A DNA stretch of 64,000 nt from a virus, in the IMG/VR virus record IMGVR_UViG_3300020056_000007; one strand, 5' to 3'. Within the stretch, counting starts at the first letter, position 1. Each line of letters opens with the position of its first letter. Below the pieces are notes generated by a model that saw only the letters and a list, made by a program, of their open reading frames with translations, was not told the origin of the DNA and did no database searches. The position numbers were made by a program, and so were the translations under genes. Below, one piece after another: positions 7,885 to 26,977 of the stretch.

Positions 7885-7892
7885 GAGCAAAA

Positions 7893-14361: not shown

Positions 14362-14849
14362 TGTTTACAAAAGAAAACGTAATTAACGCAAGATATTCTA
14401 ATAACAGAGATTTAGTGTTAGTAGAATGGGTTGACGAAAATGATATTCGTCGAATTTATAATTTATTTGAAGATAATAATGATCCAGCATGGAAATCTCT
14501 TAGAGAAGCTGGCTGGACTAAAAAGAAAATTGATGAAGCAAGCGAAAAGTATAAAGTCGATTTTTCAAAAAACTTCGAAGATTTAGCTAGAAATATTTTT
14601 AGAAAAAATGATGAAGCTGAGTATAGAAATCTTTTAGAAGATTTATTTAATGATAATGTAGAAGATGGTCGTGATACTCAGCATTTATTCACTTTAAAAT
14701 TATTTTTATTTGAATTAAGCGAAGTTAAAAGAAGCACTAATAGAGAAGCTAAAGTGGCTTTACGTAAAGCGAAAAGTTCAAGGGAAGCTTTGTTTATAGC
14801 TATTGATATTGTAAAAGAAACTCCCCCAGTTGAGGCGGAAGAATCTTAG
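14361..14849 (+). CDS. Hypothetical protein
   Basis: TAATG overlap with the upstream stop makes ATG 14361 the likely start. Charged helical protein; its 3' end overlaps the convergent gene by 50 bp. Confidence 0.6.
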   Translation: MFTKENVINARYSNNRDLVLVEWVDENDIRRIYNLFEDNNDPAWKSLREAGWTKKKIDEASEKYKVDFSKNFEDLARNIFRKNDEAEYRNLLEDLFNDNVEDGRDTQHLFTLKLFLFELSEVKRSTNREAKVALRKAKSSREALFIAIDIVKETPPVEAEES

Positions 14850-15396
14850 GATTCAACATAGTTTCATACGATTGATTAAATAAGTAAACGTTATAATCAA
14901 TTACATTTATTTTTTCTTTTTGTTCTATAAATTCATAAGAACAATACTTATCACTTCGTAAATATTGATTGAATGTTCCAGCAAATTTTTCATAAATAAA
15001 TTGATCTATTCCTCTTGAATATTCAATCATAAAATAATTTGGATCTTTCTCAAATCCTTTATAGATGTGAGAGTAATCGCCAGACCATGACATTATACTA
15101 CTATTAAGTGGTGTGTGAAATGGCTTTCTCCACCATGCATGGCATAAAGTAAAATTTTTTCTTACAAGATTATTACAGTCTCCTGTAATAATTATGTCTA
15201 AGTCAAAATATATATTTTGGCCATCTCTATATCTATCGAACATAAGAAGCTTATTAAAAACTCCTTCATATTCATCATCTCTTATTACCACAAATTCTTC
15301 ATATTGTAAACCAGAAAAATTATCAATCATATGTTTTAAATTATCAACATACCATTCACTAAATTTATTTCCAGTGTTTACACAAATAATTCTCAT
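14800..15396 (-). CDS. Glycosyltransferase (GT-A, nucleotide-diphospho-sugar transferase-like)
   Basis: IICVNTGNKFSEWYVDNL, FNKLLMF, YFDLD (DxD), NSSIMSW and GIDQFI. Start placed at 15396 from the ATGA overlap. Confidence 0.75.
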   Translation of the reverse strand: MRIICVNTGNKFSEWYVDNLKHMIDNFSGLQYEEFVVIRDDEYEGVFNKLLMFDRYRDGQNIYFDLDIIITGDCNNLVRKNFTLCHAWWRKPFHTPLNSSIMSWSGDYSHIYKGFEKDPNYFMIEYSRGIDQFIYEKFAGTFNQYLRSDKYCSYEFIEQKEKINVIDYNVYLFNQSYETMLNPKILPPQLGEFLLQYQ

Positions 15397-16064
15397 GTCC
15401 AATGCTTTCTTATCCAAGATGTATTAGATTTATGTATATAATTGTTATTAGTAAAATGCACAATTTTTATATCTTTATCAATTTCTTCATCCATAATCAT
15501 AAATTCTTTATTATATAATTTACAATATTCTAATTGCATTTGATAATTTAAAGCATCATCATTGTAGTATCGTACCATCCAATTATCTGGTAGAGTTACT
15601 ATGTTTTCTACATTATCAAAAACAAAATTTTGTTCGCCGTGTCCTTTAATATTTACAGTGCCATTATTATAATAATATGATTCCCAATACTCTTTATTTT
15701 TTGACCATTTATCAGTTAGATCAGTAAACGCATTTCCTTTAAATTTATAAAAGCCACCATTTATCGGTAGTGTACTTACTGTACTTGAATATGTTAATAA
15801 TTCATTATCTTTAATTGGATATGATAACATGTCGTCAATATTGTTAACAATAACTTGATCTATATCCATAACTATAACATCATCGAGTGTTTCAGTAAAT
15901 GTTGGATCAAAAAATTCTAATTTGTGCCAATGCGATTTTCTTTTTGGTTTATAACAAAAAAATTCAAAATCAATAGTCGTATTTTTAGATATTCCTCTTT
16001 CAAGTTTTTCAACATAATCATAAGAATATTTTCCTTCATAATATAAACAAAATATTTTTAACAT
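15393..16064 (-). CDS. Glycosyltransferase (GT-A), paralogue of the downstream gene
   Basis: GKYSYDYVEKL, WHKLEFF, MDIDQ (DxD), INGGFYKF, GEQNFV and KIVHF. Confidence 0.75.
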   Translation of the reverse strand: MLKIFCLYYEGKYSYDYVEKLERGISKNTTIDFEFFCYKPKRKSHWHKLEFFDPTFTETLDDVIVMDIDQVIVNNIDDMLSYPIKDNELLTYSSTVSTLPINGGFYKFKGNAFTDLTDKWSKNKEYWESYYYNNGTVNIKGHGEQNFVFDNVENIVTLPDNWMVRYYNDDALNYQMQLEYCKLYNKEFMIMDEEIDKDIKIVHFTNNNYIHKSNTSWIRKHWT

Positions 16065-16786
16065 TTTCCTATAACCATAAACCTTTTATAACCATTAGGC
16101 ATATCAAGTGATCCTTTATATATTTTTTGTTTAATTCCTGATTTTTCTAATAATTCATCTTCATTTTCAACACAATTAATATGATCATTTACATGAAACA
16201 TATTATTACTTTGTAAAGCAAATATTGTATTTTCTCTATAATTTTTATTTTCTAATATTTTAGGTAAGCTAGGCATATGTTCAGAAGAAGTATTAATAAC
16301 TACATGTGTTTTATCGTCATCCATAATTGGATCGAGTATGTTTTGACAATAATGATTTCCTGCAATATTATAAATTGACATAAAATTTTCAAAAAACTTT
16401 TTCGTTTTAGGATCTATATCAATGTTATCAATTGATTCGATTTGATCTGAATTTTGTTTTAGCATTATAGATAATGGAGATCCAAACCAACCTCCTAATA
16501 GTTGAACTCTTATTTTCTCATTTAATTCAAAAAATGTTGGAATAACTAAAGATAATTTTTCAACTAACCATGTTTTAGATTCAATTTGGCTTGGGCCCAT
16601 ACTATCAAGAAAATGAACAATATCCATTTCTTTTTCGTATGCTATAGTCCATAACATTTGTAATAGATGTTTATTAATTTTATCTTCTAATAATGGTTTA
16701 GTAACTTTTAAATATGAATATGGATCAAGCTTTTCTTCGTTAAAAGCTTTCCATAACACATTCCATATTTCTTTTTCTATAATCAT
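16058..16786 (-). CDS. Class I SAM-dependent methyltransferase-like protein
   Basis: SQIESKTWL, LLGGWFG (motif I), NIDID, VINTSSEH and RFMVIG. Confidence 0.7.
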   Translation of the reverse strand: MIIEKEIWNVLWKAFNEEKLDPYSYLKVTKPLLEDKINKHLLQMLWTIAYEKEMDIVHFLDSMGPSQIESKTWLVEKLSLVIPTFFELNEKIRVQLLGGWFGSPLSIMLKQNSDQIESIDNIDIDPKTKKFFENFMSIYNIAGNHYCQNILDPIMDDDKTHVVINTSSEHMPSLPKILENKNYRENTIFALQSNNMFHVNDHINCVENEDELLEKSGIKQKIYKGSLDMPNGYKRFMVIGKC

Positions 16787-18276
16787 TTTCTTATAATATA
16801 ATCATTAATTACTAATAGATCCATTCCTGTTTTATTAAAAGTGGCAATTGCTTCTTCTGGTGTTTCTACAATTGGTTCTTGACAATTAAAGCTTGTATTT
16901 AATAACATAGGCATTGCAGTTGCATAAAAAAAATCAGTGATTAACTTATAAAATTTAGGATTATCACTTTCATTTACTGTTTGTATTCTTGCAGTATTAT
17001 CTATGTGAGTTACACCCGGAATTTTATCTTTATGTTTAACTTTTACAATTCTACTCATATATGGACTTGGTTTATGTGTATCAAAAAAATATTCATACCA
17101 CTCTTCTAAGACTGCTGGTGCGAATGGCCTAAAATCTTCACGTAATTTTATAGTATTATTAATTACAAATTTAATATCATGCCTTCTTGGATCTGCTAAT
17201 ATACTTCTATTTCCTAAAGCTCTATTTCCACTTTCTGATTCATCTTGAAACCAACCAACAATTGCACCATCTGCAATTGCTTGTGCTATTTCTTTGTAAT
17301 TAACTTTTTCTTTACCTTTAAAATTATATTTTTTTCCAGCATATGTTTTTGGAGTATGAATGTTATTATTTAACATATAATCAGCATGCATATATGTCCC
17401 TAATGCCTGTCCTTCATCTCCAGCTGCAGGCGGTACATGCACGTTTTCGTATTTTTCAAAAAACATTTCATTCACATATCCATTATAAGCAACTCCTCCT
17501 GCAATACATAAATTTGTTGATGATTGCAGAGGATATACGTGTTCTCTTATAATATCTTCTGTAAAGACTTGTAATGTATGTGCAATTGAATCTGGTGGAA
17601 CATTTTGTGAATCTACCATACGTATAAAATCATCTTTATCAATTCGGTTTTGATGTAATTCTTCTAACATAAGATAGATAGAATCTTTTAAAGCGCCGTA
17701 AGCAGAAAGACCCATTACTTTTCCTGCACCTAAAAATCCGAAACCTAAATATTGAGAGATAAAATTCCAAAGTTCACCAATATTTATTTTGCTAGATAAA
17801 TCTATAATTTTTTGATTTTTATCAATAAAAATACAATTAAAATTATATCCTCTTCCGTCAATTGCTAATATATCTGATTCTTCAAATCCAGAAGTTAAAT
17901 AAGCATATGCAGCATGTGATTGATGATGATCAATATAATATGTGTTATTAATCATTTTATAATCCCATAGATTAGTGGGTTTAAAATCAAGATATTCTTT
18001 AGAAATTTTATATGGTGTTATTTGATTAACACCACCAATAGTAGTTGTGAAAGCAAACACTTCATGGTTTTCAGGTTTATAATATTCTTCATAGAATTTT
18101 ATACCAGCTTCGTTAGAATGTTTTTGTGGTATAAACACACCATTAAATGGATATACGTTTTCATCTAACTTAGGTAGATTATGTTTTAATCTACTATATC
18201 TTTCTATTTGATTATGAAATAAACCATCATATGTATTATGATCATGAGGACTAAATGATGCACTAAAGATTTTCAT
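16783..18276 (-). CDS. O-carbamoyltransferase (NodU/CmcH/TobZ family)
   Basis: HHQSHA, DGRG, GKVMGLSAYG, AGGVAYN, AAGDEG, RALGNRSILADP, REDFRPFAP, TARIQTV and LLNTSFN..EPIVET. Confidence 0.93.
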   Translation of the reverse strand: MKIFSASFSPHDHNTYDGLFHNQIERYSRLKHNLPKLDENVYPFNGVFIPQKHSNEAGIKFYEEYYKPENHEVFAFTTTIGGVNQITPYKISKEYLDFKPTNLWDYKMINNTYYIDHHQSHAAYAYLTSGFEESDILAIDGRGYNFNCIFIDKNQKIIDLSSKINIGELWNFISQYLGFGFLGAGKVMGLSAYGALKDSIYLMLEELHQNRIDKDDFIRMVDSQNVPPDSIAHTLQVFTEDIIREHVYPLQSSTNLCIAGGVAYNGYVNEMFFEKYENVHVPPAAGDEGQALGTYMHADYMLNNNIHTPKTYAGKKYNFKGKEKVNYKEIAQAIADGAIVGWFQDESESGNRALGNRSILADPRRHDIKFVINNTIKLREDFRPFAPAVLEEWYEYFFDTHKPSPYMSRIVKVKHKDKIPGVTHIDNTARIQTVNESDNPKFYKLITDFFYATAMPMLLNTSFNCQEPIVETPEEAIATFNKTGMDLLVINDYIIRK

Positions 18277-19276
18277 AAATATAATCCGCTATTTTTATAT
18301 GAGTTTCATTATTTGGATGACTATCTCCACCAATAGTATCACTATTAGAATTTATCCAAGTTTTTTTTCTACTAGCATAGTTAGTAAATCTTTGTTGAAT
18401 ATTATTTTCTATTTCTGTCTGTATAAATTCTAAACCATATTTTTCGCATTTTAACTTAAGTGTTTCTGGTGGATCGCTAAATGTAATATCATTTTTATTC
18501 CATGTTATATTATTAGGTTTATCAATTGGCCAATTTATAAAATTTTTAATTTTATCATAATACATATTGTTAGGTAAATACTCAATTAATTCTTTTTTTG
18601 ATTTGTAAGGCCAATTATGTGCATGTAAATTTTTTACAATTGTAAAATTTGTGCGTTTATCACCAGACCTTTCACGGAATGGAATCATTGTTTTAAAGTT
18701 TTCATTTTCTTGAAAATCTCCATTCATCAAATTAAGCTTATCTTGGCTTGTAACTCTCCACCAATTCCAATATAAATTCATCCCTTGAATTTGTACATAT
18801 GGTATATTATAATTTTCACATAAGATTTGAAACATGTAAAAATAGCGTAAAGAATTATGAATCCAATCTTCGTAATTTCCAGGCGACCAATTGTTGTTAC
18901 CATGCTTATACGCAGATTTTTTCATTTTTTCTGGTAAATCATTTTTATATTCTGGATTAATCAAATGAGGTTCAGTTTCTTGAGCTTCATAATCACGCCT
19001 ATTTGATTCAGTCCACATATGTATAACTAAACCAATATCTTTATGATCTATATAATTTAATAAATCAAGAGTACGATTATAAATTCCGTTATTTCCAGAA
19101 CCACCAATCGCTAGATTAATTAATTTCATATTTAATTTTTTGGCTAAATGAACAGGCCAAGGAGTGTAATTTATACTTTTTAAAAAATTGTGTTTTGATG
19201 ATCGATCTTCTAAATTAGTATTGCGGCCATATGTATATGCAGAAAAACTACATCCATTGACAATTAAGTATTTCAT
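18263..19276 (-). CDS. SGNH/GDSL-like hydrolase or acyltransferase
   Basis: NGCSFS (block I), NLAIGGSGN (block II) and C-terminal DSHPN..H. Confidence 0.6.
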   Translation of the reverse strand: MKYLIVNGCSFSAYTYGRNTNLEDRSSKHNFLKSINYTPWPVHLAKKLNMKLINLAIGGSGNNGIYNRTLDLLNYIDHKDIGLVIHMWTESNRRDYEAQETEPHLINPEYKNDLPEKMKKSAYKHGNNNWSPGNYEDWIHNSLRYFYMFQILCENYNIPYVQIQGMNLYWNWWRVTSQDKLNLMNGDFQENENFKTMIPFRERSGDKRTNFTIVKNLHAHNWPYKSKKELIEYLPNNMYYDKIKNFINWPIDKPNNITWNKNDITFSDPPETLKLKCEKYGLEFIQTEIENNIQQRFTNYASRKKTWINSNSDTIGGDSHPNNETHIKIADYIYENL

Positions 19277-20091
19277 TTCATAACTGCTCCAGCTGCTACA
19301 ATATCTAAAATATCTTCTGGAAATCTTTTTTCAATAAACTCTGTACATTTTTTACAGTATTCTTCAAATTCAAATAATTCATAATTCATCATTTTTTCAA
19401 TATTTTCTGGTGTAATATCAAATTGTCTAGATCCATTAATTACTTTTTTACTACAATGTCTTAATTTTTTTATTTCAAAATCAATTACCGGAACCTTTGG
19501 AAATGCAGCGCACATTCTTCTATCAAACTCAGGCGCCTGATCTGTTTCAGTCCAATCAGGAGATCTTGAATTAAATTCTTTAAACTGTGTATTTTCATGA
19601 TCTAATATACTTAAATCAAAATTTTCTCTGTATTTAAAATAATTTGGTGTCATAATTACTACGTTATAATTATTCAAATTATTTTTTTCAAAAAATTCAA
19701 AGTTGCCAAGTTTTTCAATTTTATCTTCGTGGAAATCTAAAACTAAATGTTCCATATAATATATAGTTGGATCTTCTAAAACTTCAGAATATCTTTTACG
19801 TACAAATGAATTAGAAAGAATTGATACAACAAATGTATCATACTCTTTTATCATATTAATGACTTCTGTTAAATTTTTAACTAGGCCTGGTTCACCGCCC
19901 AATATATTAAAAATTATTTTATGCCCTTTAAAACATTCAAGTGTATGTCGTAAAAAATCCATATCAACATGAAGATTTCTCATTTCCAAAGTCCATGCTG
20001 TACAATAATGACATGACTTATTACAAGATTTTGTTAAATAAAAATCAACTCCTTTATATCCATCTTCAAGTAATTCACGTCTAGTTTTCAT
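19273..20091 (-). CDS. Radical SAM enzyme
   Basis: CNKSCHYC, GGEP, and extra C-terminal cysteines (C, HC, CKKC) suggesting an auxiliary cluster. Confidence 0.88.
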   Translation of the reverse strand: MKTRRELLEDGYKGVDFYLTKSCNKSCHYCTAWTLEMRNLHVDMDFLRHTLECFKGHKIIFNILGGEPGLVKNLTEVINMIKEYDTFVVSILSNSFVRKRYSEVLEDPTIYYMEHLVLDFHEDKIEKLGNFEFFEKNNLNNYNVVIMTPNYFKYRENFDLSILDHENTQFKEFNSRSPDWTETDQAPEFDRRMCAAFPKVPVIDFEIKKLRHCSKKVINGSRQFDITPENIEKMMNYELFEFEEYCKKCTEFIEKRFPEDILDIVAAGAVMK

Positions 20092-20453
20092 GTTGATTTA
20101 ACATATCCTTTTGTTTGCTCAGACTCTAAAAATATTTCTTTTTTATGTTGAGGCGAATTTCTTTTTCTACATACTAAATGGCATAATGGAAATCCTTTTC
20201 CTTTACTTAAATTATTACGAAATTCAATCCATTCTTCTGTTAAAAAGATTTCTTCTACAGAATCATAATCTTCTAATCTACTAGCTAACAATAGTTGCTG
20301 ATATTCAAAATTCTGTCTATTTACTTGAGTATCAAGCCAACAACACGGAATAACTTCCATTCTGTTTGTTAAGGCAAAAGCTTCTTGTCGCCTATCAAAA
20401 CATTTAGGATCTAATTCACTATTTTCATCTATATCTGGAATTTCTCTACCCAT
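20088..20453 (-). CDS. Stand-alone SPASM/twitch-like Fe-S binding protein
   Basis: PKC...VIPCCW...EEIF...W...CHLVC pattern with no radical SAM core. Confidence 0.65.
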   Translation of the reverse strand: MGREIPDIDENSELDPKCFDRRQEAFALTNRMEVIPCCWLDTQVNRQNFEYQQLLLASRLEDYDSVEEIFLTEEWIEFRNNLSKGKGFPLCHLVCRKRNSPQHKKEIFLESEQTKGYVKST

Positions 20454-21117
20454 CGTGTAAACTCAAGCTATGTTCTTTAGATGGTCTATATGGATCATGT
20501 TCACCCAGCCATCTTGATGAATTAACTAACATAAATTGTACTCCCGCTTCTTTTGCCATACTATGTGCTTCTTCAATTGTATGTTCATTATAGTTAAATA
20601 CAATATATTGCCAAACAGGCAATTGTTCTAAATGATTTTTTGCTTCTTTACAAATTTCAAAAAGTTTTTCACCGTCTTGGTTTATTCTATACTTGTGAGA
20701 ATCTTTTGGTAAACCATCTATTCCAAACCACCAACGAGCTCTAGGGTTTGCTTGAAATGCTTTAATATACCATTCCATTTTCTTATAACCAGTTGCGTGA
20801 TGTACAGATGTAGATTTTGGTGTTTCAGTATTATAAAAAGAATGAATATGACTTAAAAAGTCTATAAATTTTGGATGATGAACTGGATCTGAAACTTGTC
20901 CGCAAAAGTTTATATGAGTAAAGTGATCAACTATTTTTTTAAATTCATCAAAAGGTAAATCTTTTCCAGGAACTTTAAGTCCTTTATGAACAAAGGCAGA
21001 TTGTCTTTGACACCTTGGACATTCTAAAGGGCACCTATGAGTAATATCAACATTAATATGCCTTCTTTTAAGCATACGTAATCCATTGTTTATAATATCG
21101 TTTGAATTGTTGAACAT
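20446..21117 (-). CDS. Radical SAM enzyme (core domain only)
   Basis: CPLECPRC, FCGQVSDP, FGIDG...YRIN and WQYIVFNYNEH. Confidence 0.85.
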   Translation of the reverse strand: MFNNSNDIINNGLRMLKRRHINVDITHRCPLECPRCQRQSAFVHKGLKVPGKDLPFDEFKKIVDHFTHINFCGQVSDPVHHPKFIDFLSHIHSFYNTETPKSTSVHHATGYKKMEWYIKAFQANPRARWWFGIDGLPKDSHKYRINQDGEKLFEICKEAKNHLEQLPVWQYIVFNYNEHTIEEAHSMAKEAGVQFMLVNSSRWLGEHDPYRPSKEHSLSLHDG

Positions 21118-22175
21118 ATATTTTTCACTTCACTTTCTGTTAACCATGGATTTATTGGCAATGATAAAACTGTATTAGATGCTATTTCAGCATTTTTTCC
21201 TTTACTTTTTCTATATTTTATGTTATTATATAAAGAATTTTTAGATAGAGGTTTATCGTAGTGAATTTGTAATCTAATATCAAATTCACGTAATGCTTGT
21301 ATTACCCAATCTCTTGTTTCTTGATCTTCGAACCTTATAACATATTTGTGATAATTATGATCTAAATTTGGATCATAAGCCTTGTCCATAATAATTGGTA
21401 AACTATTTAATTCATTATTATATATTTTAGCAATTTCTTGTCTTTTATCTTGCCACGATCTCCAATGTGATAATCTAAAAGATATAATTTCAGTATTAAG
21501 TCTATATGGTTTAGAATTATATCCAACAAATTCGAAATCAGAAATTTTTCCATGACGGCGAAGACCTTTAACATATTCAGCTTTACTTTCTTCATCAGTC
21601 ATAAAAATGCCGCCGCCATTAATTCCAGCAATAACTTTATTAGAATTAAAACTATAAGAGCTACAATTTCCTATAGTTCCAGCTTTTCTACCATTTAAAC
21701 TAGATCCTAATGATTGAGCAGAATCTTCAATAAAAACAATATTCTTTTCTTTACAGAATTTTTCTATTTCTGCAGTATCAGTCATATTGCCAAATAGATG
21801 AGTATAGATTAAAGCTTTAACTTTAGGGCTATACATTTTTTGAATTTCTTTTAATGTTATATGATATGAATTCAAATCAATATCACAAAACACAGGAGTT
21901 GCGCCAACCATGGAAATGCAAGAAGATGAAGAAATCCACGAAAAATTACTTACTAAAACTTCATCACCTGGTCCAACATTGTGTGCTAATAACGAAAATT
22001 TTAATGCATCAGTAGCAGATGCAACTGCAACACAATATTTTCTACCATTAAAACTTGATATATCATTTTCTAATTTTTCTATACCAGTTTCATAATTTTC
22101 ATTCATATTGTCATTAAATATTTTCATATAATGACTAAAATTTGTTACAAATTCTTTATGCCAATTGTCGTACAT
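21090..22175 (-). CDS. DegT/DnrJ/EryC1/StrS family PLP-dependent sugar aminotransferase
   Basis: SATDAL, GPGDEV, GATPVFCDI, HLFGN, IEDSAQSLG, SFNSNK (catalytic Lys) and LSLPINP. Confidence 0.93.
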   Translation of the reverse strand: MYDNWHKEFVTNFSHYMKIFNDNMNENYETGIEKLENDISSFNGRKYCVAVASATDALKFSLLAHNVGPGDEVLVSNFSWISSSSCISMVGATPVFCDIDLNSYHITLKEIQKMYSPKVKALIYTHLFGNMTDTAEIEKFCKEKNIVFIEDSAQSLGSSLNGRKAGTIGNCSSYSFNSNKVIAGINGGGIFMTDEESKAEYVKGLRRHGKISDFEFVGYNSKPYRLNTEIISFRLSHWRSWQDKRQEIAKIYNNELNSLPIIMDKAYDPNLDHNYHKYVIRFEDQETRDWVIQALREFDIRLQIHYDKPLSKNSLYNNIKYRKSKGKNAEIASNTVLSLPINPWLTESEVKNICSTIQTIL

Positions 22176-23019
22176 TATCGTATGCTTTCAAAATAGGATT
22201 AAGGTTTTGTTTTTGAAAATCTCTATTCCAATAAACGTATCCTCCATCGTGTAAAGTTTTATCTCTTTCATATATCATATTTATGTTGTAATATCTACAT
22301 TCCTGTATAATTCTTGGAGCAGGATCAAATTGTTCTTTACAATAAACATATGTATTAAATGTTCCTAATAAATTTTTTACTGGAGCCCATAAATTATTTA
22401 AGCTTTTATCAACATAAAAATCATCATATGCTACTATTCCATAATTATCGTAATTATTAATAAGTTTTTGAGCAGTTATATAATAATCTTTATTTGTTCC
22501 AAGGAAAAGATTATCTACTAATATATTTTCAACTGGATCTTGATAAATTTCGAAATTAATTATTTTTTCAAATTGTTCTCCAACTCCTTTTAAATATACT
22601 TCGTGATCACATAAATCATATGTTGATTTAACGTTAAAATATTTTAATGCTTCAGTGTATCCATTTACATTTTGTTCTGAATACACTGATATTATTATAT
22701 CAAATAATAAGTGCAATGTAAACCGTTGATTTTCATTATATTCATTTATATTTTCGTATGGAATAGAAAGCATATTTCTACCCAATATAAGAGTCACATC
22801 TCCTGCATTAGGAATATAATCATTAATATGAATATATTTAACGTAAATATATTTCTCTTTGAGAGAATTAATATAATCCTCTTCTTTAAAATTTCCTCTA
22901 GTAATAATAATTAAATTTGTTTCTATACCGGCTTCATTTAAAGCACAGCAATATTCATAACTATAATATAGTAATCCATCACATGGTTTACTAGTACATA
23001 CAATATTTAAACAACCCAC
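22156..23019 (-). CDS. Hypothetical protein (possibly a degenerate glycosyltransferase fold)
   Basis: In-operon 287-aa ORF overlapping both neighbours; FDPAPRIIQEC loosely recalls a GT-B C-terminal motif. Confidence 0.5.
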   Translation of the reverse strand: MGCLNIVCTSKPCDGLLYYSYEYCCALNEAGIETNLIIITRGNFKEEDYINSLKEKYIYVKYIHINDYIPNAGDVTLILGRNMLSIPYENINEYNENQRFTLHLLFDIIISVYSEQNVNGYTEALKYFNVKSTYDLCDHEVYLKGVGEQFEKIINFEIYQDPVENILVDNLFLGTNKDYYITAQKLINNYDNYGIVAYDDFYVDKSLNNLWAPVKNLLGTFNTYVYCKEQFDPAPRIIQECRYYNINMIYERDKTLHDGGYVYWNRDFQKQNLNPILKAYDNVRQLA

Positions 23020-23624
23020 TTAATAATCTCATCAACATCAGGTTTTTCATGCGCTTCAAGAATTGGAGGAGCAGCTTTATATCCTAATTGCATACTAAAT
23101 AATACGGGCTGTTTTTGTAAAAATTTAAATTCTTCGTCCCATCTTTTATCTTGTAATTGGTCTGGAAAGCATAATAAGTAAGAAACATTAATATCTTTTT
23201 CTATGCATAAACCAGTAAGTAGTTTACAAAACATTCCAATTTCTATAGCTGTTTCCATTTTTTGTTGAGGTCCAGCAAAATTATTTGGATCGCATGTTTT
23301 ATATAATTCCGCGTTTTTTCTCATAGCCTTTGCAATAGATGCGGGTGGGTATACTAATCTTGGAGTAAACATTAACACATATGGGGCTTTTGCATTTGTA
23401 TTATTAAATGAATTTGTATGTGTAGTCATATCATAAAAAGTTTCTTTAAGCTGTTTTTGTTTTGGACCTAAAACATAAACACTATATGGCATTAGCCTTT
23501 GTTTTGAAGCAACCAACTTATATGCTGTTTCAAGTAAAATTTGCACATCAGTTTCAGATGGATATATATCTTGTTGATATATTCTTATCTGTTGTCTTTT
23601 TGAATATACTTTTTCTATTGTCAT
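23007..23624 (-). CDS. Nitroreductase-family flavoprotein
   Basis: KRQQIRIY, ASKQRLMPY, APYVLMF, IEIGMF...L.GLCIEKDINVSY and LGY. Confidence 0.75.
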   Translation of the reverse strand: MTIEKVYSKRQQIRIYQQDIYPSETDVQILLETAYKLVASKQRLMPYSVYVLGPKQKQLKETFYDMTTHTNSFNNTNAKAPYVLMFTPRLVYPPASIAKAMRKNAELYKTCDPNNFAGPQQKMETAIEIGMFCKLLTGLCIEKDINVSYLLCFPDQLQDKRWDEEFKFLQKQPVLFSMQLGYKAAPPILEAHEKPDVDEIIKWVV

Positions 23625-24355
23625 TTAAACGCCCATTCTTTTTCTTTACACCAAAAACATTTTCCACATGGTTTTGAAAAATAATTTGTTTCTTCTTCTG
23701 AACCTACACACGAACTTGTTAAAGGATATAATGTATCCATAAGTTCATGTTCTTTATAAACATTCGCTACAAACTTCTTATCGATATTTATATAAGGTTG
23801 ATATATTGTTTTAAACCATGGCATTTGATTTCTAGTATCTCTACGCCTTTCAGCTAATTCATAAAAATTATTTTTTCTTTGTTCTTCTATTGGAGGATTA
23901 CAAGTCATTCCTGTAATCATTAAGGCATTATTCCATTTTTTTCTAAGTTCGTTTTCAAAATGCCTTTTCATTAATATTTTTGTGAGTCCAGATATAGAAC
24001 TAGCTCTTTCAACTTTTTTTCCATCAATAATAACTTTTTCTTCTTCCCATTTTTCTTTAGCAAGATTTCTCCATTCTTTATCATTAATGTCAAATTCAAA
24101 AACTTCATGCTCTAATATTTTTTGCTTTGGAAATTTTTCTTTCATAAATTGAATAATATCTTTAGCACATAAGTAATCAAATGGGGCCGTTTTGTCCCAA
24201 CCGGTATACGGAATAATTTCAATTTCCGGAAAATTATTACAGATTAAATAAAACAATGATGCCGAATCTAAACCTCCCGATAAAGCAAGTAATACTTGAC
24301 TTGGAATTTTTTTATCAAATAAGTCTATTTCTTGGTTTCCATAAGATAATTTCAT
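23621..24355 (-). CDS. PP-loop ATP pyrophosphatase, QueC-like
   Basis: LSGGLDSA PP-loop, PYINIDKKFVA, and TSSC...CGKCFWC Zn site. Confidence 0.8.
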   Translation of the reverse strand: MKLSYGNQEIDLFDKKIPSQVLLALSGGLDSASLFYLICNNFPEIEIIPYTGWDKTAPFDYLCAKDIIQFMKEKFPKQKILEHEVFEFDINDKEWRNLAKEKWEEEKVIIDGKKVERASSISGLTKILMKRHFENELRKKWNNALMITGMTCNPPIEEQRKNNFYELAERRRDTRNQMPWFKTIYQPYINIDKKFVANVYKEHELMDTLYPLTSSCVGSEEETNYFSKPCGKCFWCKEKEWAFK

Positions 24356-25563
24356 GCTAGCTCCGGATATATTTCAAATAAGTTTGTTTTATATAGTTCG
24401 TCAGTTTTACGAATGTATTGAATAGCTTTATTATATTCATCTTCGTTTCTATCTAATAATAAACTATTATAAACTATTTCGTTATTAATGTACATAGGCA
24501 TCAATTTATTTTTTATTTTATCAGGTAAATTTTTTGGATGAAGTTCTTTTGGATCATCTACTACATATAATCTTTGGTCCAAATTGTTTTCATTACACCA
24601 TTTTTCTAATTCTTTAAATCTTAAAATACTTAAAAGTGATACAGTTGAAAATACTTGCATATGTACATTTTCATATTCTTTTAACAAATTATAATTGTAC
24701 ATAATATCTTTCCAAAAAGATCTCCTTCTAATATAATCGTTATATTTTCCAAACCCATCTAAAGAAATATTGATTTGTAGAAACTCAAAATGTTTTATAT
24801 AATCTAAAATGCTTTTATTTCCTGATCCTAATATTGTAAGATTAGAATTCATTTCTAATATTATATCTTCTCCACCCCAATCTGATTCTATTACTTTATC
24901 TAAATATTCAAATTGTTTTTTAAGAAGAAATGGCTCTCCTCCTTGTAATACAATTATTCTTGTGTATGGAATAATCTTTTCTATATTATCCAAAAATCTA
25001 TTTTGATTTTCTCCTCCTTTAAAAGGTTGCGGTTTTTCAAATGATACTAATTCATAATAATTATTTTCTCTTGAAGTTTTTTCTCGTACAGATGAATTAA
25101 ATGGATGACACATGTAACAATCTAAATTACAAGTAGTTCCAAATTGTCTAAATTGGAGTATTAAACCATTTTGTCGTAAAGATGGTTTACCATTTCTATA
25201 AAAATCATTGGTGATTTTAATAACTTCATCAATATCATTTATTTTGTTAGATAATTGTATTCTTTCAGAGTTGCCGTGGGTTTTTTCTTGTTCAATACAT
25301 CTTTGACATTGATGCTCTAATATTTTTTTATCTTTATCATCACCCAAACCAAGCGCAGCTCTCCGACAACTTTGATATACATTTCCAAAATACCAATCAA
25401 GGGGATCCGTGTTTGATACTGTTTCTTTATTTGATCCTCCAACACAGCAAACGGTATATTCTCCAGTTGTGTTTGTGTAAATATGATCAAATAATCTTGG
25501 ACACCACCATGTTTGTTTTCTTAGATAATCTAAACTGCGTTCATTTTTAAGATCATTATTCAT
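24352..25563 (-). CDS. Radical SAM enzyme with N-terminal twitch/SPASM-like domain
   Basis: WCP...VCC...CQRC N-terminal domain; CNLDCYMC; GGEPFL; SLDG. Confidence 0.9.
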   Translation of the reverse strand: MNNDLKNERSLDYLRKQTWWCPRLFDHIYTNTTGEYTVCCVGGSNKETVSNTDPLDWYFGNVYQSCRRAALGLGDDKDKKILEHQCQRCIEQEKTHGNSERIQLSNKINDIDEVIKITNDFYRNGKPSLRQNGLILQFRQFGTTCNLDCYMCHPFNSSVREKTSRENNYYELVSFEKPQPFKGGENQNRFLDNIEKIIPYTRIIVLQGGEPFLLKKQFEYLDKVIESDWGGEDIILEMNSNLTILGSGNKSILDYIKHFEFLQINISLDGFGKYNDYIRRRSFWKDIMYNYNLLKEYENVHMQVFSTVSLLSILRFKELEKWCNENNLDQRLYVVDDPKELHPKNLPDKIKNKLMPMYINNEIVYNSLLLDRNEDEYNKAIQYIRKTDELYKTNLFEIYPELA

Positions 25564-26954
25564 TCATAATATTCTTTCAATTCTGGAAATACATCGAATA
25601 AATGCATTTCCCATTTGGTTCCAATATATGCTTTATCTTGTTTTAGCAAATAATTAAATGTATCTTGAATACTTATATCTGGTTCTGGGTCTTTAGATAG
25701 TGCTGCTTGAATATCTGGCCAATCTTTATATTTTGGTAATAAATTTTCTTTTATTTTATCTGGTAAATTATTAACACGTAAATGTTTTGGTCTTTCAATC
25801 ATTGCCCAGTTTATTTGATGAATCTTATCATTTCCCTTACAATAATCAATAACTTCATAAAAACGAAGTACACTTAAAAAAGAAACTAAACCGTTAAAAT
25901 CAACATCAATATTAGGATACTTATTACACATATCGATATTATTTTCTAACTCATTCCAATTAGTTCTTCTTCTCATATATTCTATAGATTTTCCGATTCC
26001 ATCAACTGAACCTACCATAGCAATATTTTTAAAATGAGGGACATAATTAAAAAAATTATGTTTACCAGCAACCATTGTAGTAAAATTAGTTTGATATTTT
26101 ATTCTAATATCTTTAGAATCTCCAGTCTCAACTAAAGCATCTAATAACTCATATTGTTTTTTCATAATTAATGGTTCACCACCAATAATTTTTATGCTTC
26201 TTATATAAGGTGCTAATTCTACAACCTGTTCAACTATTCCCTTTGTTCTATCTTTACTTACATTTTCGTATATAGCTTTTTTTCTATCGAGAGATCCCCA
26301 AATTTTTTCATCCCATACACCCTTTTTAGCCATATCCATGCGCATTGATGAATTAGCATGAATACACATATGGCAATCTAAATTACATTCTGATCCAAAA
26401 ACTTTTAGTTGAATTTCAAATACTCTATCTTCAAAATCAAATATTCCACTTGCTTTAAACATATCTGCAGATTTTTCTATTCCATCCCAATGTTCCCAGT
26501 CATTAGTATGCATTTTCATACAGTTTGTTCTACGTGATCTTCCATATCTTTTTTCATCATCAACACACCTTTTACATATTTTATTTACTGCTTCAAAATT
26601 AGAGTTTGGATCAAGCATTTCTTCACGAATACTATTCATGTATTCGCTTTCTTCCATCCATTCTCTTAATGAAACATCTTCAACTTTTACACCAGAATCC
26701 GCACCAAAGCAACATGCTTTATAGTTGCCATTAATTTCTGAATATACTTGAGTAAAGGGAATAGAACAAAACCATATTTTTTTGTTCTTAGTCAGATTTA
26801 ATATAGAATTTGGATCTTTTTCTTTATTTTTACCAGTTGGGGAAAGTTTGGCAAACCAAGCTGAAGTATCATATTCTCCGGGTTTTGTTTTATCGCCTGG
26901 ACCACCACGCAATAAATTATTCTTCAAAACTTCTTTTTTCACATATATCTCCAT
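25560..26954 (-). CDS. Radical SAM enzyme with N-terminal twitch/SPASM-like domain
   Basis: FCSIPF...ACC...CKRC; CNLDCHMC; GGEPLI; SVDG. Confidence 0.9.
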   Translation of the reverse strand: MEIYVKKEVLKNNLLRGGPGDKTKPGEYDTSAWFAKLSPTGKNKEKDPNSILNLTKNKKIWFCSIPFTQVYSEINGNYKACCFGADSGVKVEDVSLREWMEESEYMNSIREEMLDPNSNFEAVNKICKRCVDDEKRYGRSRRTNCMKMHTNDWEHWDGIEKSADMFKASGIFDFEDRVFEIQLKVFGSECNLDCHMCIHANSSMRMDMAKKGVWDEKIWGSLDRKKAIYENVSKDRTKGIVEQVVELAPYIRSIKIIGGEPLIMKKQYELLDALVETGDSKDIRIKYQTNFTTMVAGKHNFFNYVPHFKNIAMVGSVDGIGKSIEYMRRRTNWNELENNIDMCNKYPNIDVDFNGLVSFLSVLRFYEVIDYCKGNDKIHQINWAMIERPKHLRVNNLPDKIKENLLPKYKDWPDIQAALSKDPEPDISIQDTFNYLLKQDKAYIGTKWEMHLFDVFPELKEYYE

Positions 26955-26969
26955 AGTAATTACTTTTTT

Positions 26970-26977
26970 TATTTATA
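26970..26977 (-). promoter_or_regulatory. T4-type late promoter driving the minus-strand enzyme operon
   Basis: TATTTATA on the + strand is TATAAATA on the - strand, 15 nt upstream of the ATG at 26954. Confidence 0.75.

What the first reader, a model, noticed from the sequence alone, without database searches (positions are those of the whole stretch)
14800..26954. 12-kb inverted 14-gene biosynthetic operon inserted among the tail genes
Seen: every neighbouring pair overlaps, with ATGA overlaps at 25560, 24352, 23621, 20088, 19273, 16783 and 15393. The operon is on the opposite strand to all flanking genes and is visibly more AT-rich. It encodes 4 radical SAM enzymes, a SPASM-like protein, a PP-loop enzyme, a nitroreductase, a DegT aminotransferase, an SGNH protein, a carbamoyltransferase, a methyltransferase and 2 GTs. 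Established: the same families build decorated amino sugars and aminoglycosides (BtrN twitch radical SAM, BtrR DegT aminotransferase, TobZ/NodU carbamoyltransferase). Inference: this is a natural-product-like pathway that makes a heavily tailored amino-sugar and transfers it to a macromolecule, most likely the virion proteins flanking it. I know of no characterised phage pathway with this combination.
Basis: partly seen in the sequence, partly recalled or inferred. Interest (0 to 1): 0.88.

Follow-up and report, generated by a model that had tools for sequence, protein, structure and literature searches.

The report
Pelagiphage radical-SAM sugar-tailoring operon
A marine T4-like phage of the kind that infects SAR11 bacteria carries, among its tail-fibre genes, a tightly packed 14-gene operon that most likely builds and attaches an unusual decorated amino sugar. 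The operon is widespread and found only in phages, but nobody has tested what it makes or what it decorates.

Summary
There are 14 overlapping minus-strand genes (14800-26954), seven ATGA overlaps, and a T4-type late box 16 nt upstream, all opposite to the flanking tail genes. The AT-richness is real but disappears at third codon positions, so it reflects protein composition, not foreign origin.

Family calls are mostly right, but there are three glycosyltransferase-like proteins, not two.

The contig is pelagimyophage-like, and the operon lies in the published "host recognition cluster". Eleven genes are shared with cultured Pelagibacter phage Mosig. Across 85 IMG/VR loci there is a collinear core: GT-B, split radical SAM, SGNH-like, DegT, compact radical SAM, carbamoyltransferase, methyltransferase fold and two GT-A. 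N-twitch radical SAM, PP-loop and nitroreductase cassettes come and go around it. The operon is phage-restricted, all-soluble and keeps its catalytic motifs.

Best reading: a tailored amino-sugar glycoconjugate pathway (about 0.7). The acceptor is unresolved: virion proteins 0.35, host envelope 0.3. DNA 5hmC carbamoylation is disfavoured. Promoter class varies among relatives, so late timing is not general.

Papers mention such cassettes, but none is characterised. This scan has already flagged related operons in at least 26 other genomes.

The parts
26970..26977 (-). T4-type late promoter box TATAAATA, 16 nt upstream of the g01 start. A second copy at 26999-27006 (+) points into the fibre genes.
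   Evidence: The overall motif count equals chance (14 vs 15.1), but all 11 plus-strand copies lie 13-215 nt upstream of gene starts. No sigma-70 consensus is present here.
25560..26954 (-). g01, N-terminal-twitch radical SAM (464 aa)
   Evidence: NF033640 at 292 bits, cut-off 170. CX3CX2C at residues 190-197. Invariant C63, G76, C81, C127 and C130.
24352..25563 (-). g02, second N-terminal-twitch radical SAM (403 aa), 30% identical to g01
   Evidence: NF033640 at 239 bits. CX3CX2C at residues 145-152. Alignment.
23621..24355 (-). g03, PP-loop ATP pyrophosphatase with a QueC-like C-terminal 4-Cys motif (244 aa). It is not QueC itself.
   Evidence: PF06508 at 1.2e-6, but TIGR00364 gives only 23.8 bits against a cut-off of 150. 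Invariant S26-G-G-x-D30-S31 and C216, C230, C233, C236. Found fused to a g07-type radical SAM in P0121-P0123.
23007..23624 (-). g04, nitroreductase-superfamily flavoprotein (205 aa)
   Evidence: No direct Pfam hit. The family profile hits PDB 3gfa at 5.7e-7, plus iodotyrosine deiodinase and BluB-like entries. 9 of 12 orthologues hit PF00881.
22156..23019 (-). g05, compact GT-B-like glycosyltransferase (287 aa, GTG start). It is the first gene of the conserved core.
   Evidence: AF2 pLDDT 74. VIA-align Z 8.8-8.0 to GT-B enzymes over residues 1-287. Atlas TM 0.64-0.69 to GT4 clusters. Foldseek was not significant.
21090..22175 (-). g06, DegT/DnrJ/EryC1 PLP aminotransferase (361 aa)
   Evidence: PF01041 at 6.5e-80. 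Nearest families are PseC and LegC, but below their cut-offs. Lys180 and Asp151 are invariant in 36 orthologues.
20446..21117 (-). g07, truncated radical SAM core (223 aa)
   Evidence: CX3CX2C at residues 29-36, invariant. Matches the N-terminal half of SPASM-type maturase models. Predicted to bind g08.
20088..20453 (-). g08, Cys-rich partner of g07 (121 aa), probably the auxiliary Fe-S domain supplied as a separate subunit
   Evidence: Invariant C18, C37, C38, C91 and C95, and a C-x13-G-x4-C motif. Complex model ipSAE 0.90 against a best control of 0.01. hhalign to the N-twitch family was not significant.
19273..20091 (-). g09, compact radical SAM (272 aa) with four invariant C-terminal Cys. 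It almost always sits between DegT and the carbamoyltransferase.
   Evidence: CX3CX2C at residues 23-30 and invariant C194, C213, C246, C249. g09 is followed by g11 in 40 of 46 cases, and g06 by g09 in 33 of 50. There are 1058 relatives in metagenomes.
18263..19276 (-). g10, SGNH/GDSL-like hydrolase or acyl-editing enzyme (337 aa). Support is weak.
   Evidence: Invariant G8, S10 ... D318, H320. 5 of 12 orthologues hit PF13472 at E of 0.006 or higher. No PDB sequence match.
16783..18276 (-). g11, NodU/CmcH/TobZ-type carbamoyltransferase (497 aa)
   Evidence: PF16861 at 4.6e-63 and PF02543 at 2.8e-24. Invariant H117-H118-x2-H121 and D140. 58% identical to the Mosig protein.
16058..16786 (-). g12, class I SAM-dependent methyltransferase fold (242 aa). 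Support is weak.
   Evidence: The family profile hits MJ0882 at 3e-5 and spermidine synthases at 1e-4. Invariant G98-x-W-x-G102.
15393..16064 (-). g13, GT-A glycosyltransferase of GT8/GT24 type (223 aa)
   Evidence: AF2 pLDDT 76. Foldseek hits to UGGT at 3e-8, glycogenin, GlyE and PBCV-1 A64R at 5e-7. Invariant D67-I-D69.
14800..15396 (-). g14, GT-A paralogue of g13 (198 aa from ATG 15396)
   Evidence: hhalign to the g13 family gives 96.7% probability, E 3.5e-10. Invariant D65-L-D67.
27058..27432 (+). Context: small fibre-assembly-like gene transcribed divergently from the operon. This neighbour is conserved in 29 related loci.
   Evidence: phrog_1084 and phrog_3304. Neighbour counts. Same layout in L110 and L112.
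13282..14849 (+). Context: two genes of unknown function (359 and 171 aa) that converge on the operon's 3' end. These neighbours recur in relatives.

Best explanation
The operon is a phage-specific, cytoplasmic pathway that takes a host nucleotide sugar, edits it and transfers it with three glycosyltransferases.

Proposed steps (all inferred):
1. The compact radical SAM g09 oxidises a sugar hydroxyl to a ketone, as BtrN does.
2. The adjacent DegT enzyme g06 converts the ketone to an amine.
3. g11 O-carbamoylates a hydroxyl, using carbamoyl phosphate and ATP.
4. g12 methylates, and g10 edits an acyl or ester group.
5. The split radical SAM g07/g08, working with the PP-loop enzyme g03, activates a carbonyl or carboxylate for replacement by nitrogen or sulfur.
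6. g05, g13 and g14 attach sugars to the acceptor.

The two N-twitch radical SAMs and the nitroreductase (g01, g02, g04) are an accessory redox module that relatives gain, lose and multiply.

I put the pathway-level reading (a tailored glycoconjugate, any acceptor) at about 0.7. My preferred acceptor is the phage's own virion proteins, above all the fibres encoded on either side. The full statement, including that acceptor, stands at 0.35.

Shown here: gene set, motifs, folds, co-conservation, phage restriction, solubility and promoter. Inferred: every chemical step and the acceptor.
For: Gene families and retained catalytic motifs.

Folds: g13 is GT-A of GT8/GT24 type, and its nearest solved structures include protein-glycosylating enzymes and the PBCV-1 capsid glycosyltransferase. 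g14 is homologous to g13. g05 is GT-B-like.

Co-conservation:
- 24 of 85 IMG/VR loci hold all 8 core families, and 43 hold 6 or more.
- Genes lie on one strand in 83 of 85 loci.
- g09 is followed by g11 in 40 of 46 cases, and g06 by g09 in 33 of 50.
- 11 genes are shared with cultured phage Mosig.

Functional links: a natural g03-g07 fusion occurs in three protein clusters. g07-g08 binding is supported by a model with ipSAE 0.90 against a best control of 0.01. That mark was reached by 58 of 80 solved complexes and 2 of 110 mismatched pairs, the runs share at least 61% of contacts, and partner pLDDT is at least 76. This pass may reflect likeness to solved rSAM-auxiliary-domain contacts.

Phage-restricted: the only 3 hits in 185,579 species genomes are mis-binned phage contigs.

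Points favouring a virion acceptor:
- None of the 14 proteins has a membrane segment.
- There is no precursor-peptide space in the operon.
- A late box lies 16 nt upstream, back to back with the fibre promoter, and Mosig has one too.
- The operon keeps a conserved position, divergent from a fibre-assembly-like gene.

Sugar context elsewhere: HTVC008M has GT, methyltransferase, carbamoyltransferase and a PP-loop gene next to UDP-glucose dehydrogenase, as deposited. A SAR11 nonulosonic-acid island has DegT directly beside a radical SAM/SPASM gene.
Against: - No enzyme here has a tested activity, and no characterised close relative exists for g01, g02, g05, g07-g10 or g12.
- g09 resembles BtrN only through the generic radical SAM core (E 0.03, residues 13-81).
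- The operon has no nucleotidyltransferase, 4,6-dehydratase or sugar cyclase, so the starting sugar is unknown.
- Promoter class is not conserved. 18 of 50 distinct relatives have a consensus sigma-70 promoter as well as a late-type box, which suggests expression before virion assembly.
- The HTVC008M analogue sits near ribonucleotide reductase, not near the fibres.
- GT8 enzymes also build LPS cores.
- The Asp-Ser excess in the flanking fibres is inherited within one fibre family and is about 40% repeat-borne.
- RNA evidence is limited to short contigs in one library and does not prove transcription.
Confidence: 0.35

Rival explanations
1. The chemistry is the same, but the product goes onto the host cell envelope (LPS core or O-chain, capsule, or surface-protein glycans). 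It changes the infected cell's surface so that competing phages cannot adsorb. This is the reading published for glycosyltransferases in the pelagimyophage host recognition cluster.
For: - PMC7029224 proposes this reading.
- GT8-type enzymes commonly act on LPS cores at the cytoplasmic face and need no membrane span, which is compatible.
- Consensus sigma-70 promoters in 18 of 50 relatives suggest early expression.
- SAR11 genomes carry surface-sugar islands with DegT next to a radical SAM/SPASM gene.
- The HTVC008M analogue lies in an early-gene region.
Against: - No flippase, undecaprenyl-phosphate transferase, polymerase, ligase or Gtr-type membrane protein occurs in any version examined.
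- The genes are phage-restricted and are not copies of host genes. Only DegT finds about 27% identity in the SAR11 islands examined.
- In this window and in Mosig the only recognisable promoter is the late type. That is late for superinfection exclusion.
- The operon is consistently embedded among fibre genes.
Confidence: 0.3
2. The operon makes a free, aminoglycoside-like or other small glycoside that is released or acts inside the cell, for example against competitors or on host metabolism. It is not attached to a macromolecule.
For: - The enzyme logic recalls aminoglycoside pathways: twitch-type radical SAM, DegT, carbamoyltransferase, methyltransferase and GTs.
- A cyanomyovirus paper calls a DegT, radical SAM and amidinotransferase trio 'antibiotic synthesis genes' (PMC12801897).
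Against: - There is no sugar-phosphate cyclase or inositol enzyme, no exporter and no resistance gene in the operon or its variants.
- All proteins are soluble.
- Three glycosyltransferases and a position fixed among fibre genes fit a macromolecular acceptor better.
- A lytic phage of a very small, slow-growing host has little time to profit from an antibiotic. This last point is inference.
Confidence: 0.1
3. The operon hypermodifies phage DNA, for example by carbamoylating and glycosylating a hydroxymethylated base to escape host nucleases.
For: - A phage carbamoyltransferase that converts 5hmC to 5-carbamoyloxymethylcytosine has been demonstrated (PMC8670742).
- GT-B folds include the T4 DNA glucosyltransferases, which are among the lower-ranked matches of g05.
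- g03 and g09 have faint QueC and QueE resemblance.
Against: - The demonstrated system co-occurs with a thymidylate-synthase-like dCMP hydroxymethylase. No PF00303 gene was found in two CheckV-complete cassette-bearing genomes (171 and 166 kb), in a 79%-complete one, in Mosig or in this contig.
- In that paper, carbamoyltransferases on unmodified contigs are flanked by glycosyltransferases, as here.
- QueC and QueE scores are far below the cut-offs, and no QueD, FolE or DpdA is present.
- The operon lies in the tail module, not with replication genes.
Confidence: 0.04
4. The operon is not one pathway. The promoter-proximal N-twitch radical SAMs and nitroreductase (g01, g02, g04) act on a different substrate from the glycan core. 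Candidates are a structural protein or a cofactor. They are merely co-transcribed with the core in this phage.
For: - In a complete 171-kb relative, an 'N-twitch rSAM, nitroreductase, N-twitch rSAM' set sits beside the major capsid gene, about 40 kb from the glycan core.
- 15 of 85 loci have these genes with none of the core.
- Mosig and a Tara relative have the core without N-twitch genes.
- Copy number varies from 0 to 3.
Against: - 18 loci combine N-twitch genes with the core, often interleaved between core genes rather than appended.
- g03, which sits in the same promoter-proximal block here, is fused to the core radical SAM g07 in other phages.
- This reading is compatible with, not exclusive of, the best explanation for g05-g14.
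Confidence: 0.15

Closest known systems
Host recognition cluster of pelagimyophages, with its 'radical SAM gene cassettes' (Zaragoza-Solas et al. 2020, PMC7029224)
   Same: It lies in the same place, between the VrlC-like gene and neck gene gp14, mixed with tail fibres and glycosyltransferases, in T4-like phages of SAR11.
   Different: The paper only mentions the cassettes and assigns the island to host O-chain modification. Gene content, core order, modules, motifs and phage restriction were not described there.
Gene cluster Mosig_00082-00094 of Pelagibacter phage Mosig EXVC030M (MT647606)
   Same: It has homologues of g04-g14 at 27-58% identity in one co-oriented block, inverted relative to the fibre and baseplate genes and headed by a late-type box.
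   Different: It lacks both N-twitch radical SAMs and the PP-loop enzyme. It has a second nitroreductase and extra genes. It is annotated only by generic names such as 'molybdenum cofactor biosynthesis enzyme', and the genome announcement does not discuss it.
BtrN / BtrS(R) steps of butirosin 2-deoxystreptamine biosynthesis (from my own knowledge)
   Same: A compact radical SAM with an auxiliary-cluster Cys set next to a DegT-family aminotransferase. Together they could convert a hydroxyl to an amine without an NAD-dependent dehydratase.
   Different: There is no significant similarity beyond the radical SAM core, no 2-deoxy-scyllo-inosose synthase, and the substrate is unknown. This is an analogy, not membership.
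NodU / CmcH / TobZ O-carbamoyltransferases
   Same: g11 has both family domains and the His-rich metal motif.
   Different: The acceptor is unknown. About 30% identity to the carbamoyltransferases of cyanomyophages and HTVC008M.
5-hydroxymethylcytosine carbamoyltransferase of phage DNA (Yang et al. 2021, PMC8670742)
   Same: It belongs to the same enzyme superfamily and is phage-encoded.
   Different: That system needs a thymidylate-synthase-like hydroxymethylase, which was not found in complete cassette-bearing genomes. g11's neighbours are glycosyltransferases.
Virus-encoded virion glycosylation: PBCV-1 A064R, and mycobacteriophage capsid and tail glycosylation (Freeman et al. 2023, cited in PMC12801897)
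   Same: Soluble virus-encoded glycosyltransferases lie near structural genes. The g13 fold matches PBCV-1 A64R at 5e-7. A GT-GT-GT-methyltransferase fusion lies at 46154-49426.
   Different: Those systems have no radical SAM, DegT or carbamoyltransferase tailoring enzymes. Glycosylated virions have not been shown for any T4-like marine phage, as far as I found.
Jumbo-phage operons with arrays of N-twitch radical SAMs, glycosyltransferases and a carbamoyltransferase, flagged earlier in this scan (for example e1-5619264, e1-5405974)
   Same: They share the same enzyme classes, NF033640 members and a position next to tail-fibre genes.
   Different: Those are larger (16-26 kb), with 5-9 radical SAMs, and some include an invariant micropeptide or an early promoter. 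Here there is no room for a micropeptide gene, and the backbone is a roughly 170-kb pelagimyophage.

Membership tests
Pelagimyophage host recognition cluster (PMC7029224) | Lies between the VrlC-like gene and neck gene gp14 | tested here: met
   VrlC-like phrog_358 at 3904-9542. gp14 neck protein at 50214-51095 and gp15 at 51354-52142.
Pelagimyophage host recognition cluster (PMC7029224) | T4-like pelagimyophage backbone | tested here: met
   The structural module is T4-like. The closest cultured relative of the cassette is Pelagibacter phage Mosig. The host of this contig itself is not shown.
Pelagimyophage host recognition cluster (PMC7029224) | Variable content mixing fibres, glycosyltransferases and radical SAM cassettes | tested here: met
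   55 distinct gene orders in 85 loci, and a 13-gene variant in a Tara contig.
NF033640 N_Twi_rSAM | Score above the curated cut-off over the full model | tested here: met
   g01 scores 292 bits and g02 239 bits, cut-off 170, covering model positions 2-398.
NF033640 N_Twi_rSAM | N-terminal Cys set plus CX3CX2C | tested here: met
   Invariant C63, G76, C81, C127, C130 and C190, C194, C197.
DegT/DnrJ/EryC1 aminotransferases | Pfam domain and Schiff-base lysine | tested here: met
   PF01041 at 6.5e-80. Lys180 and Asp151 are invariant.
PseC / LegC / ArnB equivalogs (specific sugar aminotransferases) | Score above the equivalog cut-off | tested here: not met
   187 vs 423, 175 vs 420 and 164 vs 631 bits. 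No specific sugar can be assigned.
NodU/CmcH/TobZ carbamoyltransferases | Both N- and C-terminal family domains and the His metal motif | tested here: met
Phage 5hmC carbamoyltransferase DNA-modification system (PMC8670742) | Co-occurring thymidylate-synthase-like dCMP hydroxymethylase | tested here: not met
   No PF00303 match in 5 records, including two CheckV-complete genomes. The control rang in 10 of 14 genomes.
Phage 5hmC carbamoyltransferase DNA-modification system (PMC8670742) | Differentially conserved residues near the carbamoyl phosphate pocket (TobZ W408, G421, R423) | not tested
   No TobZ-anchored alignment was made.
BtrN-type twitch radical SAM dehydrogenase | Significant similarity beyond the radical SAM core | tested here: not met
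   BtrN at E 0.03, residues 13-81 only.
BtrN-type twitch radical SAM dehydrogenase | C-terminal auxiliary-cluster cysteines | tested here: inconclusive
   g09 has invariant C194, C213, C246 and C249. The spacing resembles BtrN as I recall it, but no structure or alignment was made.
GT-A glycosyltransferases (GT8-like) | GT-A fold and DxD motif | tested here: met
   g13 by Foldseek at 3e-8 to 5e-7. DxD is invariant in g13 and g14. hhalign g13-g14 gives 96.7%.
GT-B glycosyltransferases (GT4-like) | Two-Rossmann-domain GT-B fold | tested here: inconclusive
   VIA Z 8.8-8.0 with about 230 residues aligned, just above the tool's usual background. Atlas TM is 0.64-0.69. Foldseek was not significant.
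SGNH/GDSL hydrolases | Family HMM match and Ser / Asp-x-x-His blocks | tested here: inconclusive
   5 of 12 orthologues hit PF13472 weakly. G8-x-S10 and D318-x-H320 are invariant.
QueC (7-cyano-7-deazaguanine synthase) | Equivalog score | tested here: not met
   23.8 vs 150.3 bits. Only the PP-loop and the C-terminal Cys motif are shared.
Gtr-type or Wzx/Wzy-type envelope glycan modification | Membrane flippase, bactoprenol transferase or polymerase in the locus | tested here: not met
   The maximum 19-residue Kyte-Doolittle mean is 1.71 or less. The one peak is the PP-loop strand. No such Pfam families were found.
RiPP radical SAM/SPASM maturase systems | Precursor peptide gene in the cluster | tested here: not met
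   The 14 ORFs tile the operon with overlaps, and the 103-bp leader holds only promoter boxes.

The most novel reading that the evidence does not exclude
T4-like phages of SAR11, the most abundant marine bacteria, decorate their own tail fibres with a carbamoylated, methylated amino sugar. The amino group is installed by a radical SAM oxidation plus DegT transamination route that bypasses the usual nucleotide-sugar dehydratase. Swapping of accessory radical SAM cassettes diversifies this virion glycan as part of host-range evolution. This would be the first virion glycosylation pathway of this chemistry in any phage.
Probability: 0.25. Interest if true: 0.85.

Novelty: new variant of a known kind. 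Interest (0 to 1): 0.6.

Why it matters
Marine T4-like phages have carried unexplained 'LPS-like' and radical SAM genes in their fibre region since the first genomes were read, and their function is still guessed.

This operon family has several useful properties:
- It is abundant: more than 1000 protein clusters for one gene in metagenomes.
- It is confined to phages.
- It is rich in radical SAM enzymes with no known reaction.
- Its core is present in a cultured phage-host pair (Mosig on Pelagibacter ubique HTCC1062).

The old question of whether these genes remodel the host or the virion can therefore be answered with standard mass spectrometry. Either answer bears on host range and on competition among the ocean's most numerous viruses. 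It could also reveal new radical SAM sugar chemistry.

Tried and rejected
- Megablast of the operon against deposited phages found nothing.
- Profile searches of g05, g13 and g10 against PDB sequences found nothing usable.
- Foldseek of the g05 model found no match at E of 0.001 or better.
- hhalign of g08 against the N-twitch family was not significant (probability 1.5%), so 'twitch-like' for g08 rests on the Cys motif and the complex model only.
- The N-twitch family profile against PDB found only a weak hit to an archaeal lipid radical SAM.
- A literature search for an N-terminal twitch radical SAM found no paper on the family.
- No NF033640 match above the cut-off was found in 201 sampled Pelagibacterales genomes. 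One of them, G114, is unpublished.
- BLAST of the operon proteins against four SAR11 islands found only DegT at about 27% identity.
- Sigma-70-like promoters and terminators inside the operon do not exceed the shuffled expectation.
- The overall TATAAATA count equals chance. Only its placement is informative.
- Metatranscriptome run X24 gave short contigs identical to g14, g06 and the flanks. These are contigs only, and DNA carry-over is possible, so this is not evidence of transcription.
- The Asp-Ser sequon idea: the excess is real (z 10.7 and 5.1), but about 40% is repeat-borne. Among 111 large neighbouring ORFs it recurs only in homologues of the same fibre. I rejected it as independent support.
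- Foreign-origin reading of the low GC: rejected by GC3.
- Looking for a fused g07-g08 protein found PP-loop-rSAM fusions instead.

Full report
**1. What is there**

The window is 64 kb of a 67.7-kb IMG/VR viral contig that CheckV rates 37% complete. Its + strand encodes a T4-like structural module:
- baseplate wedge
- a split VrlC-like giant protein (3904-9542)
- several fibres
- neck proteins gp14 and gp15
- large terminase, sheath, portal, scaffold and major capsid protein

Between 14800 and 26954, 14 ORFs run on the - strand. All 13 junctions overlap by 4-28 nt. The last one requires g14 to start at ATG 15396.

A TATAAATA box lies 16 nt upstream of the first gene. A second box 22 nt away points the other way, into the fibre genes. 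The motif's total count in the window equals chance (14 vs 15.1 in shuffles). Its placement is not random, though: all 11 + strand copies sit 13-215 nt upstream of gene starts. Sigma-70-like promoters and terminators inside the operon do not exceed chance, so one late transcription unit is the simplest reading for this phage.

**2. Composition**

The operon has GC 0.276 against 0.348 for the rest of the window. GC at third codon positions is the same (0.149 vs 0.167, p=0.43). Only first and second positions differ. The AT-richness therefore reflects Lys/Asn/Ile/Tyr-rich enzymes set among Gly/Ala/Thr-rich fibres. It is not evidence of recent insertion.

**3. Gene by gene**

- **g01 and g02:** full-length members of NCBIfam NF033640, radical SAM proteins with an N-terminal twitch domain (292 and 239 bits, cut-off 170). 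They keep CX3CX2C and four invariant N-terminal Cys.
- **g03:** a PP-loop enzyme with invariant SGGxDS and a QueC-like C-terminal 4-Cys motif. It is far below the QueC equivalog score.
- **g04:** has no direct hit. Its family profile finds nitroreductase-fold structures (5.7e-7), and 9 of 12 orthologues hit PF00881.
- **g05:** had no family. An AlphaFold model (pLDDT 74) aligns over its whole length to GT-B glycosyltransferases at Z 8.8-8.0. The ESM Atlas model gives TM 0.64-0.69 to GT4 clusters. Foldseek alone was not significant. I call it GT-B-like, with moderate confidence.
- **g06:** a DegT aminotransferase (6.5e-80) with invariant Lys180. It is nearest to PseC and LegC but below their cut-offs.
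- **g07:** a truncated radical SAM core.
- **g08:** a 121-aa protein with five invariant Cys and a C-x13-G-x4-C motif.
- **g07-g08 pairing:** a complex model supports binding, with ipSAE 0.90 against a best control of 0.01. That mark was reached by 58 of 80 solved complexes and 2 of 110 mismatched pairs. The runs share at least 61% of contacts, and partner pLDDT is at least 76. The pass may reflect likeness to radical SAM-auxiliary domain contacts in solved enzymes, which is the architecture proposed.
- **g09:** a compact radical SAM with four invariant C-terminal Cys. Its only solved relatives match the generic core.
- **g10:** weakly SGNH-like.
- **g11:** a two-domain NodU/TobZ-type carbamoyltransferase with the His motif.
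- **g12:** a weak class I methyltransferase fold.
- **g13:** a confident GT-A of GT8/GT24 type (Foldseek 3e-8 to 5e-7, including the PBCV-1 capsid glycosyltransferase).
- **g14:** a paralogue of g13 (hhalign 96.7%). Both keep DxD.

None of the 14 proteins has a membrane segment.

**4. Relatives and co-conservation**

The carbamoyltransferase is 58% identical to that of cultured Pelagibacter phage Mosig EXVC030M. Mosig has homologues of g04-g14 (27-58% identity) in one block. That block is inverted relative to its fibre and baseplate genes.

Scans of IMG/VR with g05 and g01 gave 85 loci:
- 24 hold all eight core families g05-g12, and 43 hold six or more.
- Genes lie on one strand in 83 of 85 loci.
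- g09 is followed by g11 in 40 of 46 cases.
- g06 is followed by g09 in 33 of 50 cases.
- g07 and g08 are neighbours in either order.

N-twitch radical SAMs (0-3 copies), the PP-loop gene and nitroreductases (0-3 copies) appear at varying positions. A Tara Oceans relative (g09 79% identical) has a 13-gene version without N-twitch genes.

One gene family alone has 1058 clusters at 90% identity in metagenomes.

Independent estuary and seawater runs from 2022-2024 hold relatives at roughly 93-97% identity. Their contigs bridge g06-g03 and g01-promoter-fibre, so the composite arrangement is not an assembly artefact.

**5. Phage restriction and host comparison**

A scan of one genome for each of 185,579 prokaryote species with the g09 family found three hits. 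All are short MAG contigs that also carry VrlC-like and fibre genes, so they are mis-binned phage fragments.

Among 201 sampled Pelagibacterales genomes, none has an NF033640 match above the cut-off. One of them, G114, is unpublished and contributes only to that tally.

Host islands with distant twitch-type radical SAMs share only DegT, at about 27% identity. One such island is a nonulosonic-acid-type sugar locus in which DegT sits directly beside a radical SAM/SPASM gene. This is a host-side precedent for the pairing, not a source of the phage genes.

**6. Modules**

In a CheckV-complete 171-kb relative, an 'N-twitch, nitroreductase, N-twitch' set lies beside the major capsid gene, about 40 kb from the glycan core. 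15 loci have such genes without any core gene. That part of the window's operon is therefore separable.

The PP-loop gene g03, in contrast, is tied to the core. Three distinct protein clusters are natural fusions of a g03-type PP-loop domain and a g07-type radical SAM.

**7. Where it sits and what has been published**

The stretch from about 9.7 to 49.4 kb matches the 'host recognition cluster' of pelagimyophages. [quoted passage not shown] It has been interpreted as host O-chain modification to avoid co-infection (PMC7029224).

- The Mosig genome announcement does not discuss the cluster.
- A 2025 cyanomyovirus paper calls a DegT, radical SAM and amidinotransferase trio 'antibiotic synthesis genes' of unclear purpose (PMC12801897).
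- Carbamoyltransferases were listed among sporadic cyanophage genes in 2010 (PMC3037559).

None of these is characterised. This scan has flagged related operons in at least 26 other genomes, mostly jumbo phages with larger N-twitch arrays.

**8. Testing the rivals**

*DNA modification.* A phage carbamoyltransferase that makes 5-carbamoyloxymethylcytosine is known. It co-occurs with a thymidylate-synthase-like hydroxymethylase, while carbamoyltransferases on unmodified contigs are flanked by glycosyltransferases (PMC8670742). No PF00303 gene was found in two complete cassette-bearing genomes, a 79%-complete one, Mosig or this contig. This rival is unlikely.

*RiPP-type peptide maturation.* The operon has no room for a precursor gene.

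*Free aminoglycoside-like product.* There is no cyclase, exporter or resistance gene.

*Host envelope versus virion.* The evidence is thin on both sides.
- For the virion: soluble enzymes only; no lipid-carrier machinery; a conserved position divergent from a fibre-assembly-like gene (29 loci); a late box here and in Mosig; phage-restricted genes; and GT-A matches that include protein-glycosylating enzymes.
- For the envelope: 18 of 50 distinct upstream regions in relatives carry a consensus sigma-70 promoter in addition to a late-type box; GT8 enzymes also build LPS cores; and HTVC008M keeps a similar set next to ribonucleotide reductase (GT, methyltransferase, carbamoyltransferase, PP-loop and UDP-glucose dehydrogenase, as deposited).
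- The Asp-Ser excess in the flanking fibres is real. It is partly repeat-borne and confined to one fibre family, so I do not count it.

**9. Verdict**

The pathway-level interpretation (a tailored amino-sugar glycoconjugate pathway) is well supported as a hypothesis, at about 0.7, but no step is demonstrated. The acceptor is open: virion proteins 0.35, host envelope 0.30, free metabolite 0.10, DNA 0.04.

The operon is a new variant of a kind that the literature and this scan already know exists but that nobody has studied. Its value lies in its abundance, its uncharacterised radical SAM enzymes, and the fact that a cultured phage-host pair carrying the core makes the question directly testable.

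Noticed in passing
window 46154-49426 (+): A 1090-aa fusion protein with GT-B (PF00534), GT2 (PF00535), a third GT-like segment (PHROG glycosyltransferase families, weak Anp1) and an FkbM methyltransferase domain. It sits at the far end of the host recognition cluster, just before the neck genes. This multi-domain layout recalls PBCV-1 A064R and may belong to the same glycosylation programme.
   Followed up: partly
window 27432-33035 and 9771-13241 (+): The two fibres flanking the operon have a strong Asp-Ser dipeptide excess: 66 vs 20.6 expected (z 10.7) and 19 vs 7 (z 5.1). Ser-Asp and Asp-Thr show no excess. About 40% of sites lie in repeats such as 'DVDSAYI.QL' and 'AINELHDS'. In relatives the excess recurs only in homologues of the same fibre.
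   Followed up: partly
L061 7274-11404 (IMGVR_UViG_3300021068_000001, 171 kb, CheckV 100%): An 'N-twitch radical SAM, nitroreductase, N-twitch radical SAM' mini-cassette is inserted beside the major capsid gene and co-oriented with the head genes. It lies about 40 kb from the same genome's glycan core (L037). About 15 further loci show this mini-cassette without the core.
   Followed up: partly
P0121, P0122, P0123 (458-465 aa, metagenomic): Natural fusions of a g03-type PP-loop enzyme (N-terminal half, 45% identity) with a g07-type radical SAM (C-terminal half, 51% identity). This architecture has no characterised member, as far as I found.
   Followed up: yes
L088, L089, L090 (GTDB MAG contigs PAFP01000047.1, PAHC01000009.1, NYWC01000079.1): Three short contigs are binned into a Pelagibacter, a Rhodobiaceae and a gammaproteobacterial MAG. 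They carry the phage cassette plus VrlC-like and fibre genes, so they look like mis-binned pelagimyophage fragments.
   Followed up: partly
L009-L028 and other loci, 30-55 nt upstream of the g05 homologue: Many relatives have a near-perfect sigma-70 promoter (TTGAC, 17 nt, TATAAT with extended -10) about 34 nt upstream of the cassette, and an ATAAATA box 43-53 nt upstream. This suggests dual early and late control. The window and Mosig have the late box only.
   Followed up: yes
L002 2551-8804 (Mosig_00072-00081): Mosig has a second enzyme arm, co-oriented with its fibre genes. As deposited, it includes two Asp/Arg hydroxylase-domain proteins, a TauD-type dioxygenase, an N-acetyltransferase, a methylase, a peroxiredoxin, an FMN reductase, an aminotransferase and a fatty-acid-desaturase-domain protein. 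This could be a protein- or lipid-modifying set.
   Followed up: no
L109 3360-13247 (SAR11 genome G176): A host island with NeuB, a CMP-sugar cytidylyltransferase, two formyltransferase-domain genes and DegT. A radical SAM with a C-terminal SPASM domain and an N-terminal twitch-like segment lies immediately beside DegT. This is a candidate radical SAM step in nonulosonic-acid tailoring in SAR11.
   Followed up: partly
L113 5062-13451 (HTVC008M gp156-gp164): HTVC008M carries glycosyltransferase, methyltransferase, carbamoyltransferase, PP-loop 'NAD synthetase', UDP-glucose dehydrogenase and a 2OG-Fe(II) oxygenase in one block next to ribonucleotide reductase, outside the fibre region.
   Followed up: no
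window 52102-52551 (+) and 34339-35304 (+): A staphylococcal-nuclease-like gene (PF00565, 3.5e-11) lies between gp15 and the large terminase. A fibre-region protein has a weak C1q-domain match (2.2e-4, just below the cut-off).
   Followed up: no
window 14800-14849: The 3' end of g14 overlaps, convergently, the last 50 nt of the + strand 171-aa ORF (14334-14849). No terminator-like site lies between them.
   Followed up: no
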